A stretch of DNA of 64,000 nt, from positions 6,014,001 through 6,078,000 of the forward strand of contig NC_135767.1 of assembly GCF_052425735.1 (NCBI RefSeq). Direction: 5' to 3'. The position numbers and the translations under genes are program-made. Origin of the DNA: Oculina patagonica. Taxonomy: Eukaryota. Below, piece after piece: positions 51,138 through 64,000 of this stretch (position 1 is its first letter; each line of letters starts with the position of its first letter). The notes under the pieces were generated by a model that did not search any database, had not been told where the DNA came from, and worked only from the letters and a program-made list of their open reading frames with translations.

Positions 51138-53015
51138 CTAAGCGAACATTTTCTGACAGTTTATTCTTTTCATTTTTTGAACTTGAAAATAGTGTCATGA
51201 CTACTCCGAAACTTCGTTCGCTTTTATCGTTTATATTTACTTTTTTCAATCAATACATGTTATAGCAAAAGTTAAAGCATAACTTACTAAAGCGCACGTT
51301 TTGGTTGGGTAATTTAGCGTTTAGTATTCGCCTATTTGGTAATGTGAATTCCTTCAACTTTAGGGCGCGCGCTGATGTGACGCGACATGGCGCAAGCGAT
51401 CAACGCGGTGCCTTCCGAAATATTGGAATTCAGTATACTTCCCATGCCGTTTAATCAGCCTTGCATATGAAACTTATGTTCTAGGAAAGTCCATAGGCGT
51501 TCTCATTTGTTTCTGTGACCGTGCAAAGCCTCGGATGGTGACGTCACCGCTCTTGATAGAGCCCAGTCTCCCTTAACCGAGTAAGCCTGGGAACTAAGCT
51601 GATTTTAAAGTACATTTTTACAGGAAACTTAAATTTCGATTTCAGATCACCTGCATTTGTAAGAGGAAGTGTTAAGAGAAAACAAATTCTTTTCTAGCCC
51701 ACCCAACCAGATTGCGAAACGACAAATGTTTATTTTGTCGAAAACAATATATTTACCTTTTAATTAGACCTGCTTACAAGTCAGGGAACGCTGAGCACGA
51801 GAAAGGAGTCCTTCTGAACGAGAAACGAACGACTTTGAGACAATCTACCTTTCTGCTTTTTGTTGAGACTTTTGCAGAGCTGAACCATTTTTCCACAATA
51901 TTCTGGATGATCGATGATTTTTTTATCATTTAAAAATATTCAGTCTTGTTTGTGTTGTCTGAGCTTCATACGCTAAATTTTTCACACTTTTCAAAGTAAA
52001 CGTAAAATTTATTGCCTCTCACTAAATAAATATTTTGCGCCACGCAGTCTGGCAGTGTCGGCTAATAAGAATTTTACTTTCTATAAAAGAAAGTACAGGT
52101 GATCTGAAATAGAAGTTAAAGTCTCAAGAATATGATGAAAATTGCCTTTCCTCAAAACATGTTTTCTCTTGTAGAAGTTAAAAACACTTTTGACTTGCTA
52201 CAGAGTATAATTTTATTTATCGACGATTCAGAGTGAATTGCTCAAGTACAAAACGTTATCTGCCATTTCGTTCCAAAGTTAACGGCACTGAAGTCTGATT
52301 AAACACAACCGATGCTTATTGTCAACAGTTAAAACTAATATATAATTAGAGAGCAATTTTGCGCGGCTCTAACTGTGTGTGTATAGCTTATCATCTTGCA
52401 ACGTGTAATACAAATGAACATAGGATCATCTTAATTGTTATGCAAGAAAAACCTTAGACAAGTTGATCATGAAAGGTTATTATGAAATGTTGATAATAAG
52501 CAGGATGTGCTACCATTAGCGATTAGAAAAATAGGTTTTATTTTAATTAAGGTAATAAGCTGTTCGTACAATTTTCATATCTATCGATAAACTCGAAAAG
52601 ACTCTACACTTAAATAACGGCGGAACCTAAAATGCGGTCATTGTTTTCAGAGACCTTTTCGCTAAAAAGATGTGTGATCGATGCTATTCTTTCGGTCTTT
52701 ATAAATTGTACTCTAGCAGCTTATAGAATAATAAGACATTTTTTCAGCTGAAAAGCGACAGAATATCCAAACAACTGACAGATCTGTCAGTTTTACACTC
52801 AAACATTCAATAAAATGGGCAAATTGCATGACATAAATTCTAATGCAGCAAACACCGGGCCATCAAGAAGTAAAAGGAATTCATATACAAAACAACACAC
52901 AACACAGACGAGTGCGAGTTATTAGCGACATACAAATTATCATCTCACAAGTTGATGCTTTTCCCTCAAACCTTAGTAACTTTCTCAACTTTAAGCACTC
53001 AAGCATCTCAGAACA

Positions 53016-53941
53016 ATGGCGAACTTTACTGGAGAAGGAAACTATACAAGCAAACTGAATCAAGCACTCATGATCAGCGCACCACCAGCAGGCATAGTTG
53101 AGTTTTTTTCAGCTTTGAACATTATTCTTTCCATCACCGCTGCTGTGGGCAATGTTCTCATTCTTTTTGCTCTTAAGAATGTTTCTTCTATTCATCCTCC
53201 AACAAAACTTTTCTTTCGATGTCTTGCGGTCACTGATCTTTGCGTTGGTTTTATTGCACAACCACTCTACGCTACCTACGTTATGTCTCTTATGATAAAG
53301 ATGAACGTGAATGTGCTATACTACGTCGACAAAGCTTGTGAAGCTTCAGGGTATATTTTATGTGGAGTATCTGGCTTAACATCGACAGCAATTAGTGTGG
53401 ACAGACTTCTCGCCCTGTTGCTGAGACTGAGATACAGACATGTCGTAACATTGAGGCGAGTTCGTGTTGTCACAACTTGTTTCTGGTTATTTGCTGCTTC
53501 AGTTGGATGGATTCGGGTGTGGAGAAGAGATATCGCCTTAAAGGCAGCCTCTGTTGGCATAATTCTTTGCCTGGCAACTTCGATTTTCTGTCACACGAGG
53601 AACCACCTCAAACTACGACATCAACAAGCCCTGGTACAAAACAATGTCCCCCAAGGACAACAAAACGGAGAAGGGATTCCACTTAACGTAGCAAGATACA
53701 AAAAGACAGTCTCCAGCATTATGTGGGTGCAGTTGGCATTACTTGCCTGCTATGTTCCGTGGGGGTCGTTGTCGCTGTGCTTAATGTGAATGGAATTGAA
53801 CATGAAATCGTGACTTTCTCAGTTGCTACAATGACGCTAGTTTTCTTAAACTCATCTCTAAACCCAATCTTGTACTGCTGGAAAATCAGGGAAGTGAAAC
53901 AAGCAGTTGAAGACGCAATCAGGCAGCTTTATTGTTTTTAG
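53016..53941 (+). pseudogene. Class A GPCR copy 13 (near-duplicate of copy 11), +2 frameshift in TM6
   Basis: CCGTGGGGGTCGTT versus CCGTGGGTCGTT in copy 11 (G-run 53761-53765); could be a homopolymer error. Confidence 0.8.
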
Positions 53942-55032
53942 AACACTAGCTATATAGATCAACGTAAAGTTGCAAAGTACAATCGACAGTCTCCAGATAG
54001 CGTAAATACGGCTAAATTCATTTCTTGTAATGAGCAAAATTGCTTTCAAATCAGGTTGGAAAATGTCGAAAAAGCGCTAGAAAACGGAAGATAAACTGTA
54101 AATATGTCGACAAAGATGAGCCATCCGTTAACTGTTATTTGACTCAAACATTGAATCAGCAACTTTGTTTTTTCTTTAATTTAGCTATCATGCTAGGCCA
54201 CCGATGAGAATGTATCAGCATGGATGTATTGTTCATGATGCGAGATTTCATAATGTATTATAACAGAAAATTCATTAATTTAAATTAAATAAAACATAAA
54301 CAAATGATGGCAATAAATTTATTCAACTCAAAACCTGTTTTTTGAGATAAAGTGTCGTTTAAAATATTTTCCAGACTAGCATTTTTTGACCAAACGAATA
54401 TTTTTTTCTTAGACCGTGTTGTGACAATAAGGGATTCTGGTTCTATTTCACTGTATAAGTTTTAAATTTGTTTTATTTCTCTTAATGTTTGCGGAAACAA
54501 ATATACTTACTGAGAAGCAAAAATTGAGAAAGATTTCTGACTATTATTTTTGTCCTTGGGTTTTACCGGTATCTTATATTTGTCGCGGAGTTCCGACTTG
54601 TGCCACCACTGCATTTAAAATTATCTTGCTAATGGACCGTTTCAAATGTTTTGAAACTGGATTCAATATTTTTGTGTGGTTGTTGTTGGATGAGCTGTTC
54701 ATGACATCGAACATTAGCAGATAATGAAATATGGAACACGCTTGGTCCAATTACGAACTGAAAAAAAATTGCGTCACCTTCTCAACCAATCAGATGCAAA
54801 ACCAAAACCAATCACGACTTGGTCACGTGCGTTTTCCTGCGCTTGGCGCCGATTGCGTGTGTTGGCTTCGTGTTCTCATTGGTTCATTGTGTTGTTTAAT
54901 TTGTTGTGATTGGACACTCATATAGTTTTGTTATTACGCTTCTTTCGTGTTTAGCAACCTCCCCATGCCATTCGCGTGTCAATTACGTGTATTTCTTGCT
55001 GTTTCGCTACATTGGTTAAACTGCTGACGATT

Positions 55033-55416
55033 TCCGGGGGGGGGGGGGTACTCCATATAATGGCCTATACGGGGAGGCTCCGCCCGAAAGGGGTACCTTT
55101 TTTAGGCTTCAGGTATATAAAAGGGTAGGGATTTCACAAGTTTAAGTATATGAAAGGGTATTAAATCCATCATTAAGGTTTTTAAAAGGGCCTTGAATTA
55201 AAATATAAAGCGCAACATGAAAATGACAAGAAAACGTCCTGTTCTAAGTCTATGCCATATCTTTTAGGTATATGAAAGGGGTACCTTTTTTCAGTAAAAG
55301 GTATACGAAAGGGGTACAATTTCTGTGAAAATGGTAAATAAAAGGGTAAGGGGTAAGAGCTTGGGGCGGAGCCTCCCCGTATAAAACTTTTTTGAGTGCC
55401 CCCCCCCCCCTCCGGG
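55033..55416. mobile_element. MITE with (C)CCGGGGG...CCGGG ends and 8-bp TSD TGACGATT
   Basis: TSD at 55025-55032 and 55417-55424; empty site at ~37419. Confidence 0.85.
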
Positions 55417-55806
55417 TGACGATTTCAATGAAATGAGGTTATCAAAGACTTCCACACCTCGAAATTTGCTCACAATGCTAAAATTTCTCGCCTGATTAAT
55501 CCCTGAATTGTACTCTACAAGCCAGTTACTTTTGTTATTTACAAATAATTTATCTATAATTTATAATTTTATATATTGATTTACCTCAGTCAAAGGCATT
55601 GCCTGAAAGTCAATGAAAAGTTTTATTTATTTGCTATCTATTATTTGTACATGTTCGGGTCTTATGATTATTATCCAGAATCTCTCAGCGATAGCGCCGG
55701 AGAAGTCGGTTGAATTATCTTGTCAAACGATTGGACTTCTTTGAAGGAGGGATCTGCAAAAGAGAATACATGACGTCAAGAATATACAAGAGTTTTATTA
55801 ATCAAT

Positions 55807-56476
55807 AGAGTGAATTCGTGTAACCCGTTTTTTATATGCAAATGCGCCGTGTAATATTTAAATGAGCTGTACAGGAAAACAGAAAATTGCGGACAAATCG
55901 TAATTATTTGCATGTGGAAGTCAGGTTAAAATTCAAGCATTTACCCATATGTAAAAACCAAAACAGATAACGGAGCTTAAAATTTCTCATGCCTTGAATT
56001 GTCTTGCGATTTTAGACAAACATTTTATATTCAACATCCCGTAAAGAAAAACAAATTAAACTTGACTGTAACACAATTCTGCGCGAGCAATCCAATGGGG
56101 AGCTTTAGCAAATCACGATGACAAGCAACTTTTGTTTAGCAAACAAAAGGTTTAATGAGCAGGAAAATAGCTGTACACGTGTCTTATTACTCTTGGCAAC
56201 TTCCCATCTTCTGAAAAACAACACTGATGTGAAATGAATAAATCCTGCGTGATTTGAACCAGACCGCTAATTTTCGATGTAGGTTGAACATGTTCTTGAA
56301 GTGCTTAAAGAAAGACACGTCCTGTTTATACTTATTTTCTGTATAACTATTAAAGTGATTTCTTTGAGGTTTTCTGACCACTCGTGTATTGTTTTATTGT
56401 ATTATGATTGTACACAAACATTAGAATATTATACGACTCATTAACATATAAAAAACGGGTTACACGAATTCACTCT
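55807..56476. mobile_element. MITE with 3-bp AAT TSD (PIF/Harbinger-group-like)
   Basis: TIR AGAGTGAATTCGTGTAACCCGTTTTTTATATG; empty site ATCAATACATG at ~17453. Confidence 0.85.
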
Positions 56477-58219
56477 AATACATGTTATAGCACATGTTAT
56501 AGCATAACTTAGAAAAGCACACGTTTTGGTTGGATTATTTTTCGCCCATGGGTAGACGCTGGCGAATGCCTTCAACTTAAGCGCGCGCGCTGATGTGTCT
56601 TCCGAAATATTGGAATTCAGTATATTTCCCATACCGTTTAATCAGCTTGCGTTTTATCAAGTTTTAAAAATTATAGCCCTTAACCACGACCGTAAAATAC
56701 TTTTGTCTTGTACAGGGCGAAACTTTTCTTGGTACATATTTGTAAGGCATTTTAAAGCAGCTAAGTCTCTATGCGTTCTCGCTTGTTTTGATGGCCGCGA
56801 AAAGCCTGGGATGGTGACGTCGGCACTCTTGATAGACCCAGACTCCCTTAAGCCGAGAAAGCCTTGCAAAGAGGCTGATTTTAAGGTACATTTTTACGGG
56901 AAACTAAAATTTCGATTTGAGATCACCTGCACTTGCAAGAGGAAGTGTTTTGAGAAAATTAATTCTTGTCTAGCCCACGCAACCAGACTGCAAAACGACA
57001 AATGCTTATTTTACCTTTAAATTAGACCTGCTTTATAGTACAAGTCGAGCTCAGGGAACACTGAGCACAAGAAAGGGGGCCTTCTGAACTAGAAGGGAAC
57101 GACTTTGAGAAAATCTACCTTACTGCTTTATGTTGGGACTTTTGCAGAGCTGAGCCATTTTTGCCACAATGTTCTTGTAATAAACATCGATGATTATTTT
57201 GTCATTTAAAAATATTTAGTCTTTTTGTGTTGTCTGAGCTTCACATACTAAATTTTCCACACTTCTCCAAGTAAACGTAAACTTTAGTGCCTCTCGCTAA
57301 ATAAATATTTTGCGCCACGCAGTCTGGCAGCGTCGGCTAGTCAAGAATTTATTTTCTATTTAAAAAATCAGCTTACAAGTGCAGGTGATCTGAAATAGTA
57401 GTTTAAAATACGTCCAATATTGCCTTTCCTAAAAAATTTTTAAAACACTAGCTTTATTTTATTCATCGCAGATCAGAGTGAATTGCTCAAGTACAAGACG
57501 TTGTCTGCCACTTTGTTCAAACCAGGTTAATGGCCATGACGGTAAAACTTTGAAGTCTGATTAAACACAAGCGATGCTAATTGCCACAAGTCAAACAACT
57601 AATAGATAATTAGGAAACAATTTTGGCCGGCTCTAACTGTGTGTATTTAGTATCTTGCAACGTGTAATACATATAAACTGACATAGAATCATCTTATATG
57701 TCATGCACGAAAACCTTTGACAAGTTGATCAAGGTTGATAATAAGCACGATGTGCTACGTTAGCGATTAGGAAAATAGGTTTTATTCTAATTAAGATAAT
57801 TAGCTGTTCGTACAATTGTTTTCATAGACCTTTTCGCTAAAAGGATGTGTGATCGATGCTCTTCTTTCGGTGTTTATATGGTACTCTAGCAGCTTAAAGA
57901 ATAATAAAACATTTTTTTCAGCTGAAAAGCGACAGAATATTTAATCAACTGACAGATCTGTCAGTTTTAAACTCAAACGTTCAATAAAATGGGCAAATTG
58001 CATGATATAATTTCTAATGCAACAAACACCGGGCCATCAAGGATAAATAGGAAGTTATCTACAGAAATAAACAACACTTGCAAGGCACAAACGGTCGTGT
58101 TATCAGCGACATATAAAATCATCGTCTCACAAGGTTTTTCTCCTTTCTCAAACATTAGTAACTTTTTCAACTTCGAGCACTCTTTGAGCCAAGTTTAATT
58201 TTATGTCCACCCAAGAACA

Positions 58220-59131
58220 ATGGCGAACTCAACTGGAGAAGAACTGAACTACACAAGCAAACTGAACCAAGCACTCAGCGCACCACCAGCAGGCATAGTT
58301 GAATTTTTTTCAGCTTTGAACATTTTTCTTTCCATCACCGCTGCTGTGGGCAATGCTCTAATTCTTTATGCTCTGAAGAATGTCTATTCTATTCATCCCC
58401 CGACAAAACTATTCTTTCGATGTCTGGCGGTCACTGATCTTTGCGTTGGTCTTATTACACAACCACTTTATGTTTTCTACATTATGTCTCTTAAGATCAA
58501 GATGAACAATGTGCTGTATTATGCTAACCAAATCTCTGGAGCTTCAAGTTATATTTTATGTGGAGTATCTGGCTTGACATCGACAGCAATTAGTGTGGAC
58601 AGACTTCTCGCACTGTTGTTGGGACTGAGATACAGACATGTCGTAACATTGAGGCGAGTTCGTGTAGTCATAACTTGTTTTTGGCTAATTGCTGCTTCAT
58701 GTGGTTTGCTCTGGGTGTGGAGAAGAGATATGACCATTACGGCAGCCTCTGTTGGCTTACTACTTTGTCTGGCAACTTCGTTGTTCTGTTACACGAGGAT
58801 CCACCTCAAACTACGACATCAACAAGCCCAAGTACAAAACAATGTCCCTCACGGACAACAGAACGAAGAAGGGATTCCACTAAACATAGCAAGATACAAA
58901 AAGACACTTTCCAGCATTATGTGGGTGCAGTTGGCTTTTGTTGCCTGCTATGTTCCGTGGGGCATTGTGGCTGTGCTGGATGCGAATGGAATTGAACATG
59001 ACGTGGCTTGGTTAGCTGCACAAATTCTGGTCTTGTTAAACTCGTCTCTAAACCCGATCTTGTACTGTTGGAAAATCAGGGAAGTGAAACAAGCAGTTAA
59101 AGGCACAATCAGGCAGCTTTACTGTTTTTAA
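58220..59131 (+). CDS. Class A GPCR, copy 14
   Basis: Intact 303-aa ORF. Confidence 0.95.
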   Translation: MANSTGEELNYTSKLNQALSAPPAGIVEFFSALNIFLSITAAVGNALILYALKNVYSIHPPTKLFFRCLAVTDLCVGLITQPLYVFYIMSLKIKMNNVLYYANQISGASSYILCGVSGLTSTAISVDRLLALLLGLRYRHVVTLRRVRVVITCFWLIAASCGLLWVWRRDMTITAASVGLLLCLATSLFCYTRIHLKLRHQQAQVQNNVPHGQQNEEGIPLNIARYKKTLSSIMWVQLAFVACYVPWGIVAVLDANGIEHDVAWLAAQILVLLNSSLNPILYCWKIREVKQAVKGTIRQLYCF

Positions 59132-59417
59132 AAGACTAGCTGTGTAGATCGACATAAGGTTGTAAAGTATTACATTGACAGTGTCCAAATAGCGTGAAAA
59201 AGTAGCTTAATTCAATTATTAGAAAGTGCGAAAATTGCCTTCCAATCGAACTGAAAAGTATTGAGACAGCGCCAGAATACGAACAATAAAATGTAGAACT
59301 GTAGACAAGGAACGCTTGCCATAACGCATCCATTTGGCGAAAATAGTGACGTAGCGGCTTTGTTTTAATTTTAATTTAGCTATCATGATTGGCCACAAAT
59401 GAGTTGAAGCTTTAATA

Positions 59418-59532
59418 ATACACACTTGTATAATAGGAGTTTTGGCGCAAATGATAAAAAAAGCTCGGCTCGCCGGCTCGCCTCGCTATTTTTATCATTT
59501 GCGGCCAAAACTCCTATTATACAAGTGTGTAT
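59418..59532. repeat. 115-nt terminal imperfect hairpin
   Basis: 29-bp perfect stem, 1-nt bulge, 14-bp stem, one mismatch, 3-bp stem, and a 20-nt loop containing (GGCTCGCC)2. Confidence 0.9.
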
Positions 59533-59626
59533 AAGCGCGAGCGGCACGCAAAAAATCGCGAGCTGCATTGGTGCGCCAGAATTTTTTTTCAATTGAACAA
59601 ATATTTTTCTTTGGTATATACAACAG

Positions 59627-62600
59627 ATGGCTGCCGAAAGATATTCGTCAGAAGTTTTGCAAGCTATGATGGAGGAAAACCTCCGTGAATTTCAAAGAAA
59701 CCCACAAAAGAACAATATGTTTATTATTGCAAGAACCAATTTTGATAATTGGCTCCGTGTATGGAAAATGAAAATGCCTGAATCTGACAGAAATAACAAA
59801 GATCTTTACACTTTTGCAAGAAAAAACAAAAAAAACTTTTATGATCTTTTATTAAGTGAAATTAATGAATTACAAAGCTTAAAATCGAGCTTTGGGTTGG
59901 AAGTTAAATTTTATAAACAAAAAACCGGTATAAAAGAATATATGTGGCATTATTTTAAAGAAAAACAACCGCACGTTTTTAACGAACATAATAAAAAACA
60001 GATAAAACAAGAGTTCGATAAATTTATTGAAAGAGCAAAGGGAGAAATCGAGTCTTGGTCAGAGAGAGGCTCAGGCTGGGTTATTGAAAGAATAACAGAA
60101 GCGTACGTTAATGTTGCACGCTATCAGCCATTGCGGGGAGGAACATATTTACCTCTTCCAGCTAATTTGGCAAAAAAGATAGCGATTGTTAACGTAAGAA
60201 ACAGGGATAACGAATGTTTAAAGTGGGCTCTGAGAGCTGCTTTATATCCACCTGCAAACGGCAAAGACCCCCAAAGAACAAGTAAATATCCAGTTAACGA
60301 CGAAATTAACTATGAAGGAATTGTTTTCCCAACACCTGTAAAACAGATTGACAAGCTTGAGGCGCAAAACAGCAAACTTGCAATAAATGTGTTTGGATGG
60401 GAAAACAATCTTGTGATTGTGCACAGAATAAGCAAAAAAGAAAAAAACATTCCTCGTATAAACCTTATGTTAATTGAGTCAGGATTAATTCAGCATTATT
60501 GTTTTGTAAAAAGAGTAAGCGCTCTGCTTTACGATCAGAGCAAATCACACAACTCAAAACACTTTTGCATGATGTGCTTGACCGGTTTCACAAGACCTGA
60601 CTTGCTTGAGAACCACGAAAAACATTGCAATGGTGTGAACGGCAGGCCAACAAGGATCGAAATGCCAAAGAATGGAGAAAACACCCTTTCTTTTCAAAAT
60701 TATCAGAAACAAATGAAAGTGCCATATGTGATATATGCTGACTTTGAGGCATTGGTAAGAAAGATGCAACGATGTGAACGCGAAACGCTCAAGGACCGCC
60801 AGAAGAGAAAAGATCTTGGTGAAGAACAGGAAGACTTGGAGCAAAAAAGCTACACTGAAAAGACAGAACAGCACGAGGCATGTGGTTTTTCTTACACTGT
60901 AGTAAGGAGCGATGGCATAAACAAACCTCCAGTGACCTACAGAGGTAAAAACGCAGTTGAAGTGTTTTTGAAATGCCTTTTAAGTGAAGAGAAAAAAATA
61001 AGATTTGCTTTGGCAACACCAAAGCCACTTGTGATGACGGCAAAGGATTGGGAAGAATACAGAAACGCAACAAGTTGCCACATTTGCAACGAAAGTTTGA
61101 TAAGTGATTCATTTTTTGACTCAATGCCTGTTTGGTGCCACGACTCAGGCCGTTATTGCGGCCAAAGCCACAAATGTTGTTATTACGCGGCACTTAAAGA
61201 AATAGAATTTGTAGGCCCAAAAAGAGAAAGAAAAGCAAAAAACAAAACAGATCAATGGATTGCAAAAACCCAGGAAGAATGTTTGTTTTGCTCGGAACCT
61301 TTTATGAAGAAAAATTATAAGGACTCTGTAAAAGATCATTGCCACATAACAGGCAAGTTTCGAGGAGCTGCGCACAACGCATGTAACTTGAAATTAAGAA
61401 TAAAACCAAAAACAGACCAAATACCAGTTGTTTTTCACAACTTAAAAGGCTACGATGCACACCATTTAATGCAGGCTATGACTAAGCTAAAGCTTCCAAC
61501 AAAGGAAGAGAAAAAATGCGGTGCGAACAACATGGATGTAAAATGCGTTGCCAACAACATGGAGAAATACATTACATTTTCATTTGGCGGTTTGCGCTTT
61601 ATTGACAGCTTAAACTTTCTTCAAGGAAGCCTTGATTCACTCGTAAGTGCAACCCCCAAACAAGCTTTAAAAATAACAAAAAAACTTTTCTTTGAAAAAA
61701 GCGAACTGTTGTTGGACGATGGAACATATCCATGCAAATACATTGAAGTGTGGGAAATGTTTAAGGAAAATGATTTGTGCCAAAGTTTTTTTGAAAAACT
61801 GTTACAACCAGAAGAAAAAGAAAATATTATAAGCCGACTTTGGATAATTACTCAATCCGAAAAATTAAAAACCATTTTTCTTGAACAATACGAAAAAGCA
61901 AAAACCATTTTTCTTGAAAACTTTGAACTGTTAACAAAAAAAGGAATTTATCCATACGAATACATAGACTCATGGGATAGATTTATAGAAACAATTTTAC
62001 CAAAAAAAGAAAATTTTTACAGCAAGCTTAATGATGAGCACATAACAGATAAAGAGTATAAGCATGCACAAAACGTGTGGAAAACCTTTGGCTGCCAGAC
62101 GTTGGGTGACTACCACGATTTGTACGTACAAACTGACGTTACTCTTTTGGCAGATGTTTTTGAAAACTTCCGAAAAATATGTCTTGAGAAGTACGGGTTG
62201 GATCCTGCAAATTATTACACATCTCCAGGCCTTTCTTGGGACGCACTATTGAAAAAGACAGGAGTACAGCTTGAGCTACTGACAGACTACGACATGCATC
62301 TTTTTGTGGAAAGAGGAATAAGAGGAGGAATTTCAATGGTAAGCAAGAGATACGCAAAGGCTAACAATCCTTATGTTGAGGGGTATGACGAAAAAAACCC
62401 AAAAAAATACTTAATGTACCTTGACGCTAACAACCTTTACGGGTGGGCAATGAGCAAGCCGCTGCCAAAAAGTGGTTTTAGGTGGAAAAGAGTTATGCCG
62501 ACAGAAAAAGAAATTATGATGAAAAAGGAGTCTGCAAAAGCTGGGTGGATATTGGAGGTTGATCTTGAATATCCCTCTGAACTGCACGATGCCCACAACA

Positions 62601-63721
62601 GCTACCCGTTGGCACCAGAAAAAAAGAAAACAAATAAAGACTTATTTTCGCCTTACCAAAAGAAATTAATAGAAGAGCTTAAATTTAATCAGCCTGACTG
62701 TGAGAAGCTTGTGTTGACACTTGAGGACAAAACTAATTATGTTGTACATTATCAAAACTTGCAGTTTTATCTGAAACAAGGAATGAAACTGAAAAAAGTT
62801 CACAGAGTATTAGAGTTTGAACAAGAGAAGTGGATGGAACCCTACATTCGGATGAACACAGACTTTCGTAAAGAAGCCGAAAGCGACTTTGAAAAGAGTT
62901 TTTACAAGTTGATGAACAACTCAGTTTTCGGTAAAACAATGGAAAACCTGCGTAATCGTGTTGACATAAAAATAGTGCGAAGCAATGAAACAAACAAAAT
63001 AAGAAAATTGATTGCAAGCCCATTGTACTCAAGGCATGTAATGTTTTCTAACGATCTAGTTGGAATAGACATGCGCAAAAGCAAGCTTATTCTCAACAAG
63101 CCAGTCTACACGGGAATGACAATTCTTGACAACAGCAAGATATGTATGTACGATTTTTATTACAACCACCTGAAAAAGGTATACGATTCAAAGTGCGAGC
63201 TACTGTACACGGACACAGACAGCTTGTTGATCGAAATAGAAACAGAAGACGTTTACGCGGACATGGCAGAACACATTGACAAGTACGACACAAGCGAATA
63301 TCCCCCCGAACATCCACTTTTTTCTGTCAAAAACAAGAAGGTGTTGGGCAAAATGAAGGATGAGTGCGCGGGTGAAGAAAAGTGCAAGATTACAGGGAAA
63401 AAAATTCCTGTGCTTCACATTATTTCTGAAAGTGTTTGCCTTAGATCAAAAATGTATTCTATCGCGTGCGCAAAAATGAATATAAAAAAAGCAAAGGGGG
63501 TAAAAAAGTGCGTAGTAAAAAATGAAATTGTGCACGAAAATTATTTAGAAACGCTTTTTGGAACAAAGCAATTATGGCATGGAATGAACATACTTAGAAG
63601 CGAGGGTCATGAGATTTACTGAATGCATCTCAACAAGGTCTCGCTGTCGCCTTTTGACTCAAAGCGATGGATAGCGGATGATGGGATACATACAAATGCT
63701 TACGGATATAAGCCGACATAA
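59627..63721 (+). CDS. polB: Protein-primed family B DNA polymerase (group-2 Polinton type: TP-like/vOTU/exonuclease with EndoVII insert/polymerase); one in-frame TGA at 63620-63622
   Basis: ERGSGW; NRDNECL..HY (vOTU-like); YADFE, FHNLKGYD, DVTLLADVF (Exo I-III); DHCHITGKFRGAAHNACNL (EndoVII); YLDANNLYG, KLMNNSVFGK, YTDTDS; after the TGA the frame continues MHLNKVSLSPFDSKRWIADDGIHTNAYGY to TAA at 63721. Confidence 0.92.
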
Positions 63722-63730
63722 ACAGAACTT

Positions 63731-64000
63731 TTATAGCTTTTCTGGTGGTAACTGTGTATTTGGAGGAATAACAAGCAATTCTTCACGCACGAAGCCGCGC
63801 TTTGGACCATCGTGCAAGTAATAAAGCACTGGCTGATCAGGTTTAGTAACAGACCTTTCGATGCTGTAGACTTTTAATGACCAAATCGGATCTGTTGCCC
63901 TTTTTACGCCGCCTTCTAGCTCGCCAGGTTGGTAGAGATAGCGCACATTAACGAGAGAGGGTATTTTTTTTTCTTTCTTGCCAACAGGCCTTGTATATTT
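63731..64000 (-). CDS. C-terminus of a Polinton-type retroviral-like (rve) integrase
   Basis: VRYLYQPGELEGG..RATDPIWSLKVYSI..VLYYL..GPKRGFVREELLVIP resembles Polinton integrase C-terminal domains; frame open to the window edge; tail-to-tail with PolB, 9 bp apart. Confidence 0.75.
   Translation of the reverse strand, partial: KYTRPVGKKEKKIPSLVNVRYLYQPGELEGGVKRATDPIWSLKVYSIERSVTKPDQPVLYYLHDGPKRGFVREELLVIPPNTQLPPEKL

What the first reader, a model, noticed from the sequence alone, without database searches (positions are those of the whole stretch)
61076..61392. Tandem duplicated EndoVII-like Zn module inside PolB (one degenerate, one intact)
Seen: module 1 is CHIC...VWCHDSGRYCGQSHKCCY and module 2 is CLFC...VKDHCHITGKFRGAAHNACNL. 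They align (CH-x-x-G-R/K-Y/F-x-G-x-x-H-x-x-C), but module 1 lacks the DH and final N. Known: group-2 pPolBs carry a T4 endonuclease VII-like HNH insert, and T4 EndoVII acts as a dimer on branched DNA. Inference: a single-chain pseudo-dimer with one dead site would nick one strand rather than cut both, as needed to resolve a hairpin telomere like the one at 59418.
Basis: partly seen in the sequence, partly recalled or inferred. Interest (0 to 1): 0.7.

Follow-up and report, generated by a model that had tools for sequence, protein, structure and literature searches.

The report
Dead nuclease copy in Polinton polymerase
The DNA polymerase of a virus-like transposon (Polinton) in a likely coral genome carries two tandem copies of a small zinc-type nuclease module, of which the front one has lost its cutting residues and likely only helps grip DNA; the element's hairpin-shaped ends also occur in relatives with one or no copy, so the duplication is not needed for them.

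Summary
Observation confirmed, interpretation mostly not. Residues 470-520 and 542-590 of a Polinton protein-primed polymerase are a gapless 68-residue tandem duplication of an endonuclease-VII-like module. Module 2 keeps D570/H571/N587. Module 1 keeps the four zinc ligands (67-68 of 68 relatives), has V/W/Y at the catalytic positions, is under purifying selection (dN/dS 0.33), and its model best matches Hpy99I and T4 EndoVII (Z about 5). The closest precedent is Hpy99I, whose dead first repeat reads DNA. The '59418 hairpin' is the first 111 nt of a 182-bp terminal inverted repeat of a 16.5-kb element with a 5-bp target duplication. All 44 such ends read have one orientation (no flip/flop), against hairpin-telomere resolution. 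Terminal hairpins also occur in Polintons of this genome with one module (9 of 10 elements) or none (5 of 9). Polymerases about 90% identical carry one or two modules, and three-module forms exist. Best reading: an optional, dead, likely DNA-binding extension of a one-site nickase. I found no paper on it in 10 searches. A bolder lead is that the outer hairpin arm is regenerated by nick-and-refill at a conserved bulge.

The parts
59415..59419 (.). 5-bp target-site duplication, left copy (right copy follows G000:C10:6089961)
   Evidence: 5-bp duplication in 14 of 15 paired ACACAC-type elements
59420..59601 (+). Left terminal inverted repeat (about 182 bp) of a 16,542-bp Polinton that runs beyond the window (G000:C10:6073420-6089961)
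   Evidence: (98.4% to the right end)
59420..59530 (.). Terminal imperfect palindrome, 111 nt, starting at the element's first base; 27-bp perfect outer stem, 1-nt bulge on the inner arm, GCTCG repeats at the tip
   Evidence: (-47.5 kcal/mol, z -14.8)
59627..63622 (+). [quoted passage not shown]
60215..60496 (+). Candidate vOTU protease dyad C197 and H290 (motif judged by eye; not confirmed by a profile)
   Evidence: sequence; domain order from PMC11161782 passages
61034..61186 (+). Module 1 (residues 470-520): helix, C484/C487, beta-hairpin, H515/C518; catalytic positions are V502, W503, Y519
61187..61249 (+). Basic linker (521-541), variable in length among relatives, weakly constrained (dN/dS 0.69)
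61250..61396 (+). Module 2 (542-590): C552/C555/H583/C586 and the intact D570, H571, N587 site; lies between the ExoI and ExoII motifs of the proofreading domain
63731..64000 (-). 3' part of the rve integrase gene of the same element
   Evidence: rve E 2e-6, below the curated cut-off

Best explanation
The insert is a tandem duplication of an endonuclease-VII-like module inside a Polinton polymerase; the rear copy keeps its catalytic residues and likely works as a one-site nickase, while the front copy has lost them, keeps its predicted zinc ligands and likely serves as an optional extra DNA-binding unit, as the first repeat of Hpy99I does. Shown: duplication, residue pattern, selection on both copies, variation between one, two and three copies, and ends that are TIRs in one fixed orientation. 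Inferred: zinc binding, nicking, DNA binding by module 1, and a target among structured intermediates of the element's own DNA (fold-back ends, branches) met by the polymerase during protein-primed copying. It is not a pseudo-dimer that opens a closed hairpin telomere.
For: Zinc ligands C484 68/68, C487 68/68, H515 67/68, C518 67/68; module 2 D570 65/68, H571 66/68, N587 68/68. dN/dS 0.33 in module 1, 0.14 in module 2, 0.69 in the linker, 0.41 and 0.16 in flanking exonuclease parts (19 disjoint pairs). Same secondary-structure string in both units, pLDDT 89.8. Module 1 alone: the top 7 of 48,161 chains are beta-beta-alpha-Me nucleases, led by Hpy99I (Z 5.1, rmsd 4.2, 67 aligned) and T4 EndoVII (Z 4.8, rmsd 3.9, 67 aligned). 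In Hpy99I the dead first zinc repeat reads the major groove and the second cuts (PMC2699513). The last module is the intact one in the 2x and 3x forms. Optional: P0069/P0079 (two modules) against P0119 (one, 627-member cluster) are 90% identical on both sides; multi-module proteins are rejected as one clade to the exclusion of single ones (p-AU 7e-5).
Against: No DNA contact or activity was tested. Module 1 of this copy is not basic (4 K/R against 7 D/E), and its former active site is filled with conserved hydrophobic residues, which also fits a packing surface. The Z-scores are under 8, Foldseek gave no match at E<=0.001, and the Hpy99I match covers chain range 106-184 only, so the tandem geometry is not shown to be alike. 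Elements with no such nuclease spread in the same genome with hairpin ends, so no step at the ends strictly needs it.
Confidence: 0.45

Rival explanations
1. Homing-type endonuclease: module 2 cuts rival Polintons at a sequence, promoting replacement of their polymerase gene, and module 1 sets or changes the specificity.
For: PMC11161782 (passage) reads endonuclease inserts in pPolBs as relics of intein invasion; PMC10748475 (passages) reports HNH-bearing pPolB2 replacing pPolB1. Here one AGTAGT-ended element type carries either a group-1 polymerase or an EndoVII one behind a shared N-terminus. The hairpin tip of module 1 (503-509) is variable, and the nearest fold, Hpy99I, is sequence-specific.
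Against: No splicing domain flanks the insert in the sequence. Module 2 is as constrained as the exonuclease next to it (0.14 against 0.16), more like a domesticated domain. No target site was identified.
Confidence: 0.2
2. Module 1 is a structural passenger: a duplication that became folded against module 2 or the exonuclease domain and is kept only so that the protein folds, with no DNA contact.
For: Conserved V502, W/Y503, Y/F519 at the old active site. Both modules gained the same loop extension, absent from single-module forms. Module 1 is predicted less well alone (pLDDT 72.6, strand 28-33 lost) than in the pair. Repeated duplication (P0250, two intact-looking copies) and loss. P0243 keeps both zinc sites with neither active site.
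Against: Kept across lineages about 40% identical with dN/dS 0.33; triplicated in two lineages; the linker varies from about 20 to 45 residues.
Confidence: 0.2
3. One reading: a single-chain pseudo-dimer of T4 EndoVII type with one dead site that nicks and opens a covalently closed hairpin telomere.
For: Every double-module element whose end was reached has a long hairpin (108-186 nt); none had plain ends. The shared loop extension could form a pseudo-symmetric contact. T4 EndoVII nicks bulges and branches (PMC10956419).
Against: 0 of 44 ends inverted, where nick-and-transfer or concatemer resolution is expected to give both isomers (recalled from parvo- and poxviruses). TIRs, target duplication, integrase and a candidate vOTU dyad fit protein priming. 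Hairpins occur with one and zero modules. Three-module forms do not fit a dimer. The T4 dimer is an interwoven dimer of six-helix subunits; the insert returns to the exonuclease domain about 15 residues after N587.
Confidence: 0.07

Closest known systems
Polinton/Maverick pPolB2 with HNH insert (PMC10748475, passages; PMC11161782, passages)
   Same: Zinc-type HNH nuclease inserted in a Polinton protein-primed polymerase; element with integrase, A32 ATPase, TIRs and target duplication.
   Different: One HNH domain is described there, and called unique to nematode and oomycete elements; here the insert is tandem, with a dead front copy, in coral and mollusc elements. Whether the insertion site is the same was not tested.
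Hpy99I restriction endonuclease (PDB 3FC3; PMC2699513, abstract and passages)
   Same: Two tandem zinc-bound repeats, only the second catalytic; top fold match of both models.
   Different: A stand-alone homodimer with CxxC/CxxC ligands whose repeats are not visible in sequence; here CxxC/HxxC, visible in sequence, inside a polymerase, oligomeric state unknown.
T4 endonuclease VII (PDB 1E7D; PMC10956419, passages)
   Same: Catalytic core D-H...N and zinc site; Pfam PF02945 and PHROG matches.
   Different: The helices and C-terminal part that build the T4 dimer have no counterpart in the insert; two active sites there, one per chain here.
Terminal palindromes of virophages and PLVs in Halocafeteria (bioRxiv 10.64898/2026.07.28.741278, passages)
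   Same: Palindrome inside the TIR next to the target duplication; hairpin priming proposed there.
   Different: There mostly with non-pPolB replication genes and 52 nt long; here with pPolB, 59-186 nt, with a conserved bulge and one fixed orientation.

Membership tests
Polinton/Maverick | pPolB plus rve integrase plus packaging ATPase | tested here: met
   (rve E 2e-6 below cut-off; Pox_A32 E 2e-10); polymerase motifs seen in the sequence, no PF03175 hit
Polinton/Maverick | TIRs of 100-1500 bp and a 5-8 bp target duplication | tested here: met
   182-bp TIR, 5-bp duplication; range from PMC10748475
Polinton/Maverick | Capsid proteins and maturation protease | tested here: inconclusive
   No Pfam or PHROG match for the candidate ORFs; not folded
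Endonuclease VII-like beta-beta-alpha-Me nuclease (module 2) | Asp-His and Asn of the active site, zinc ligands, family profile | tested here: met
Endonuclease VII-like beta-beta-alpha-Me nuclease (module 1) | Fold and zinc ligands | tested here: met
   predicted model, Z about 5
Endonuclease VII-like beta-beta-alpha-Me nuclease (module 1) | Active-site Asp, His, Asn | tested here: not met
   V502, W503, Y519
T4 EndoVII-type junction resolvase dimer | Interwoven dimer built by long helices behind the catalytic core | tested here: not met
   Profile match ends at position 62 of 82 and the chain re-enters the exonuclease domain; helix after module 1 about 10 residues
T4 EndoVII-type junction resolvase dimer | Cleavage of branched DNA | not testable with these tools
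   needs an assay
Hairpin-telomere replicon (parvo-, poxvirus type) | Flip and flop isomers of the terminal palindrome (feature recalled) | tested here: not met
   44 of 44 integrated ends in one orientation; caveat: integration could select one isomer
Hairpin-telomere replicon (parvo-, poxvirus type) | Covalently closed ends of the free genome | not testable with these tools
   only integrated copies and contigs available

The most novel reading that the evidence does not exclude
These Polintons repair their own ends: the 3' end folds back, the polymerase's own nuclease nicks beside a conserved bulge, and the polymerase refills the outer arm from the inner arm, with the dead module reading or measuring the longer hairpin. 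This would explain why the outer 26 bp differ between families (17 variants among 29 distinct hairpins) yet stay paired (6 mismatches in 754 cells, against 26 in 406 behind the bulge), why the orientation never inverts, and why the first asymmetry lies at 6-14 bp with no module, mostly 19-20 bp with one and 26-27 bp with two in this genome. Against: the trend is three lineages, some double-module families in metagenome contigs have a bulge at 19 bp, and two single-module elements keep a bulge in the outer stem.
Probability: 0.12. Interest if true: 0.75.

Novelty: new variant of a known kind. Interest (0 to 1): 0.38.

Why it matters
How Polintons leave the chromosome and keep their ends is open, and the nuclease inside their polymerase has no assigned job. 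Natural one-, two- and three-module versions, including a pair about 90% identical, and element families with zero, one or two modules in one genome give a ready comparison for an assay. The duplication itself is an architectural variant with a clear precedent, so its own surprise value is moderate.

Tried and rejected
Complex prediction of module 1 with module 2: no verdict (score 0.00, alignment not used). Foldseek against PDB and viral models: nothing at E<=0.001; weak viral rows are phage EndoVII proteins. Sequence search of PDB: no relevant hit. Protein Atlas unavailable, so the terminal-protein and vOTU assignment rests on motifs only. My first 'single-module' profile held 7 multi-module proteins; these were dropped and the test redone; only the offset and profile-profile figures are used. 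First fetch of single-module ends missed them because the polymerase faces the other way (redone in 49, 51). Viral contigs with P0106: no match; the 12 found with A1 gave no usable ends. No RNA holder listed. Contigs of 4 runs showed no strand-changing joint in the hairpin, but contigs drop such forms. The careful tree did not finish; quick trees were used. Two papers were not held. Rejected: chance match; recent decay of module 1; a 6-bp duplication TAATAA (the family pattern is 5 bp); assembly artefact (145 of 150 genomic matches span the whole two-module query).

Full report
Setting. The finding lies in a 1331-aa ORF (59627-63622) at the left end of a 16,542-bp element that continues past the window. 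The element has an rve integrase and an A32 ATPase, inverted repeats 98.4% alike and a 5-bp target duplication. It is a Polinton inserted in a tandem array of GPCR genes. The nearest named proteins come from a stony coral (83% identity), so the host is likely a coral. This copy's polymerase ends at a premature stop about 32 codons early.

The duplication is real. The two motifs align without gaps at an offset of 68 residues (11 of 36 identical; 0-3 at neighbouring offsets). A profile from 27 single-module relatives recognises the second half of module 1 at 14.2 bits, above all 5000 shuffles, and the first half of module 2 at P<0.01 in 61 of 68 relatives. In 68 aligned two-module proteins the four zinc ligands of module 1 are present in 67-68. 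The positions matching D570, H571 and N587 hold V (62), Y/W (53) and Y/F (60). Module 1 has dN/dS 0.33 against 0.14 for module 2 and 0.69 for the linker (19 disjoint pairs of 41 intact segments; 18 min-edit not applied, simple Nei-Gojobori). AlphaFold gives two units with the same helix-CxxC-hairpin-helix pattern (pLDDT 89.8, pTM 0.63). Module 1 folded alone (pLDDT 72.6) returns seven beta-beta-alpha-Me nucleases as its top seven rows, led by Hpy99I (Z 5.1) and T4 EndoVII (Z 4.8). These Z-scores are modest and Foldseek found nothing significant.

It is common and labile. In this genome 145 of 150 scored matches (434 candidates) span the whole two-module query. Among 121 proteins (query plus 120 listed of 686 hits; the query favours doubles), 92 have two modules, 2 have three and 27 have one; 17 of the 27 are true singles and 10 are partial or look like truncated gene models. 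In the three-module proteins only the last copy is intact. P0069 and P0079 (two) are about 90% identical to P0119 (one) on both sides of the insert. In a quick tree of the core behind the insert, six single-module proteins nest inside a 99%-supported clade with all 13 multi-module ones, and holding the multi-module proteins together is rejected (p-AU 7e-5). I read this as an old duplication with later loss or exchange. P0250 shows a separate duplication with two intact-looking copies, and P0243 keeps both zinc sites with neither active site.

The hairpin. It starts at the element's first base and folds far better than shuffles (z -14.8). I read 44 ACACAC-type ends in this genome (29 distinct sequences). 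At least 41 of them belong to elements with a two-module match; 3 were not checked. All 44 have the 1-nt bulge on the inner arm (side assigned by shared flank, and for three ends). Replicons that resolve hairpin telomeres give two isomers (recalled), so this argues against that route, unless only one isomer integrates. Single-module Polintons of the same genome have 70-74-nt hairpins at both ends in 9 of 10 elements (the tenth's left end was outside the fetched stretch). Group-1 Polintons, in which my profile found no module (best E 0.13-0.57), have 59-65-nt hairpins in 5 of 9 elements (in two only one end was seen), plain ends in 3 and no ends found in 1. All 14 AGTAGT-ended pairs have 6-bp duplications. 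Among 80 metagenome contigs, mostly too short, 14 ACACAC-type hairpins (108-186 nt) and one AGTAGT-type lie upstream of two-module genes. The link to long hairpins, ACACAC termini and 5-bp duplications may be one lineage.

Mechanism. I commit to a one-site nickase (module 2) with a dead, zinc-held, DNA-binding extension (module 1), acting on structured intermediates of the element's own DNA. The precedent is Hpy99I, where the dead first repeat inserts into the major groove (PMC2699513, abstract and passages). Activity, binding and target are inferred. The T4 enzyme is an interwoven dimer of six-helix subunits (PMC10956419, passages), and the insert has no room for that. Against my reading: module 1 of this copy is not basic, and nuclease-free elements manage with hairpin ends.

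Literature. An HNH insert in pPolB2 is known (PMC10748475, passages; PMC11161782, passages). Coral polintoviruses are known (PMC11131425, passages; no mention of HNH or palindromes in the main text). Terminal palindromes in virophages and PLVs were reported in a 2026 preprint (passages). Passages of PMC5714182, PMC8502044, PMC12747079 and PMC12721341 gave nothing on tandem modules in pPolB. Ten searches showed no paper on the double module or on hairpin-ended animal Polintons; PMC5803895 was seen as a listing only. I read no supplements; the alignment figures of PMC10748475 and the domain lists of PMC11131425 could show the architecture, and subscription papers and Repbase entries were not searchable.

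Verdict. A real, conserved and apparently undescribed variant of a known insert, with a good structural precedent. The hairpin-telomere story is unlikely. The fixed-orientation, bulged terminal hairpins are the more interesting lead.

Noticed in passing
window 59420-59530 and 43 other ends: Outer 26 bp vary between families but stay Watson-Crick paired (6 mismatches in 754 cells, no G-T), while the stem behind the bulge keeps mismatches (26 in 406); suggests the outer arm is copied from the inner arm. A GTT(T/C)TGG-like motif at positions 20-26 is kept in distant families.
   Followed up: partly
L189, L197, L208, L216: One AGTAGT-ended element type carries either a group-1 polymerase or a single-EndoVII polymerase behind a shared N-terminus and neighbouring genes: a likely polymerase swap like that reported in nematodes.
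   Followed up: partly
L032:6937-7046; also L043:7748-7848: An internal copy of the inner half of the terminal repeat lies about 0.9 kb from the right end, so that a short ORF (207 aa in L032, no Pfam or PHROG match) is bracketed by end-like sequence.
   Followed up: no
L008: The module region switches from this family to another family's sequence just behind the active-site motif of module 2; a likely recombinant.
   Followed up: no
L232/L233, L244/L245: Single-module elements whose two ends differ, each hairpin still matching its own arms.
   Followed up: no
L299:1990-2123: A 134-nt AGTAGT-type hairpin 3.5 kb upstream of a two-module polymerase gene in a metagenome contig; same element not proven.
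   Followed up: no
P0073, P0074, P0080, P0082-P0084, P0091, P0092: Modules separated by 140-300 residues of tandem repeats; may be gene-model artefacts.
   Followed up: no
window 50100-59400: About 5.2-kb tandem duplication carrying rhodopsin-family GPCR genes (53016-53789, 58220-59131); more copies follow the element (L033).
   Followed up: no
window 63620-63622: Premature stop near the polymerase C-terminus; this copy is probably inactive.
   Followed up: partly
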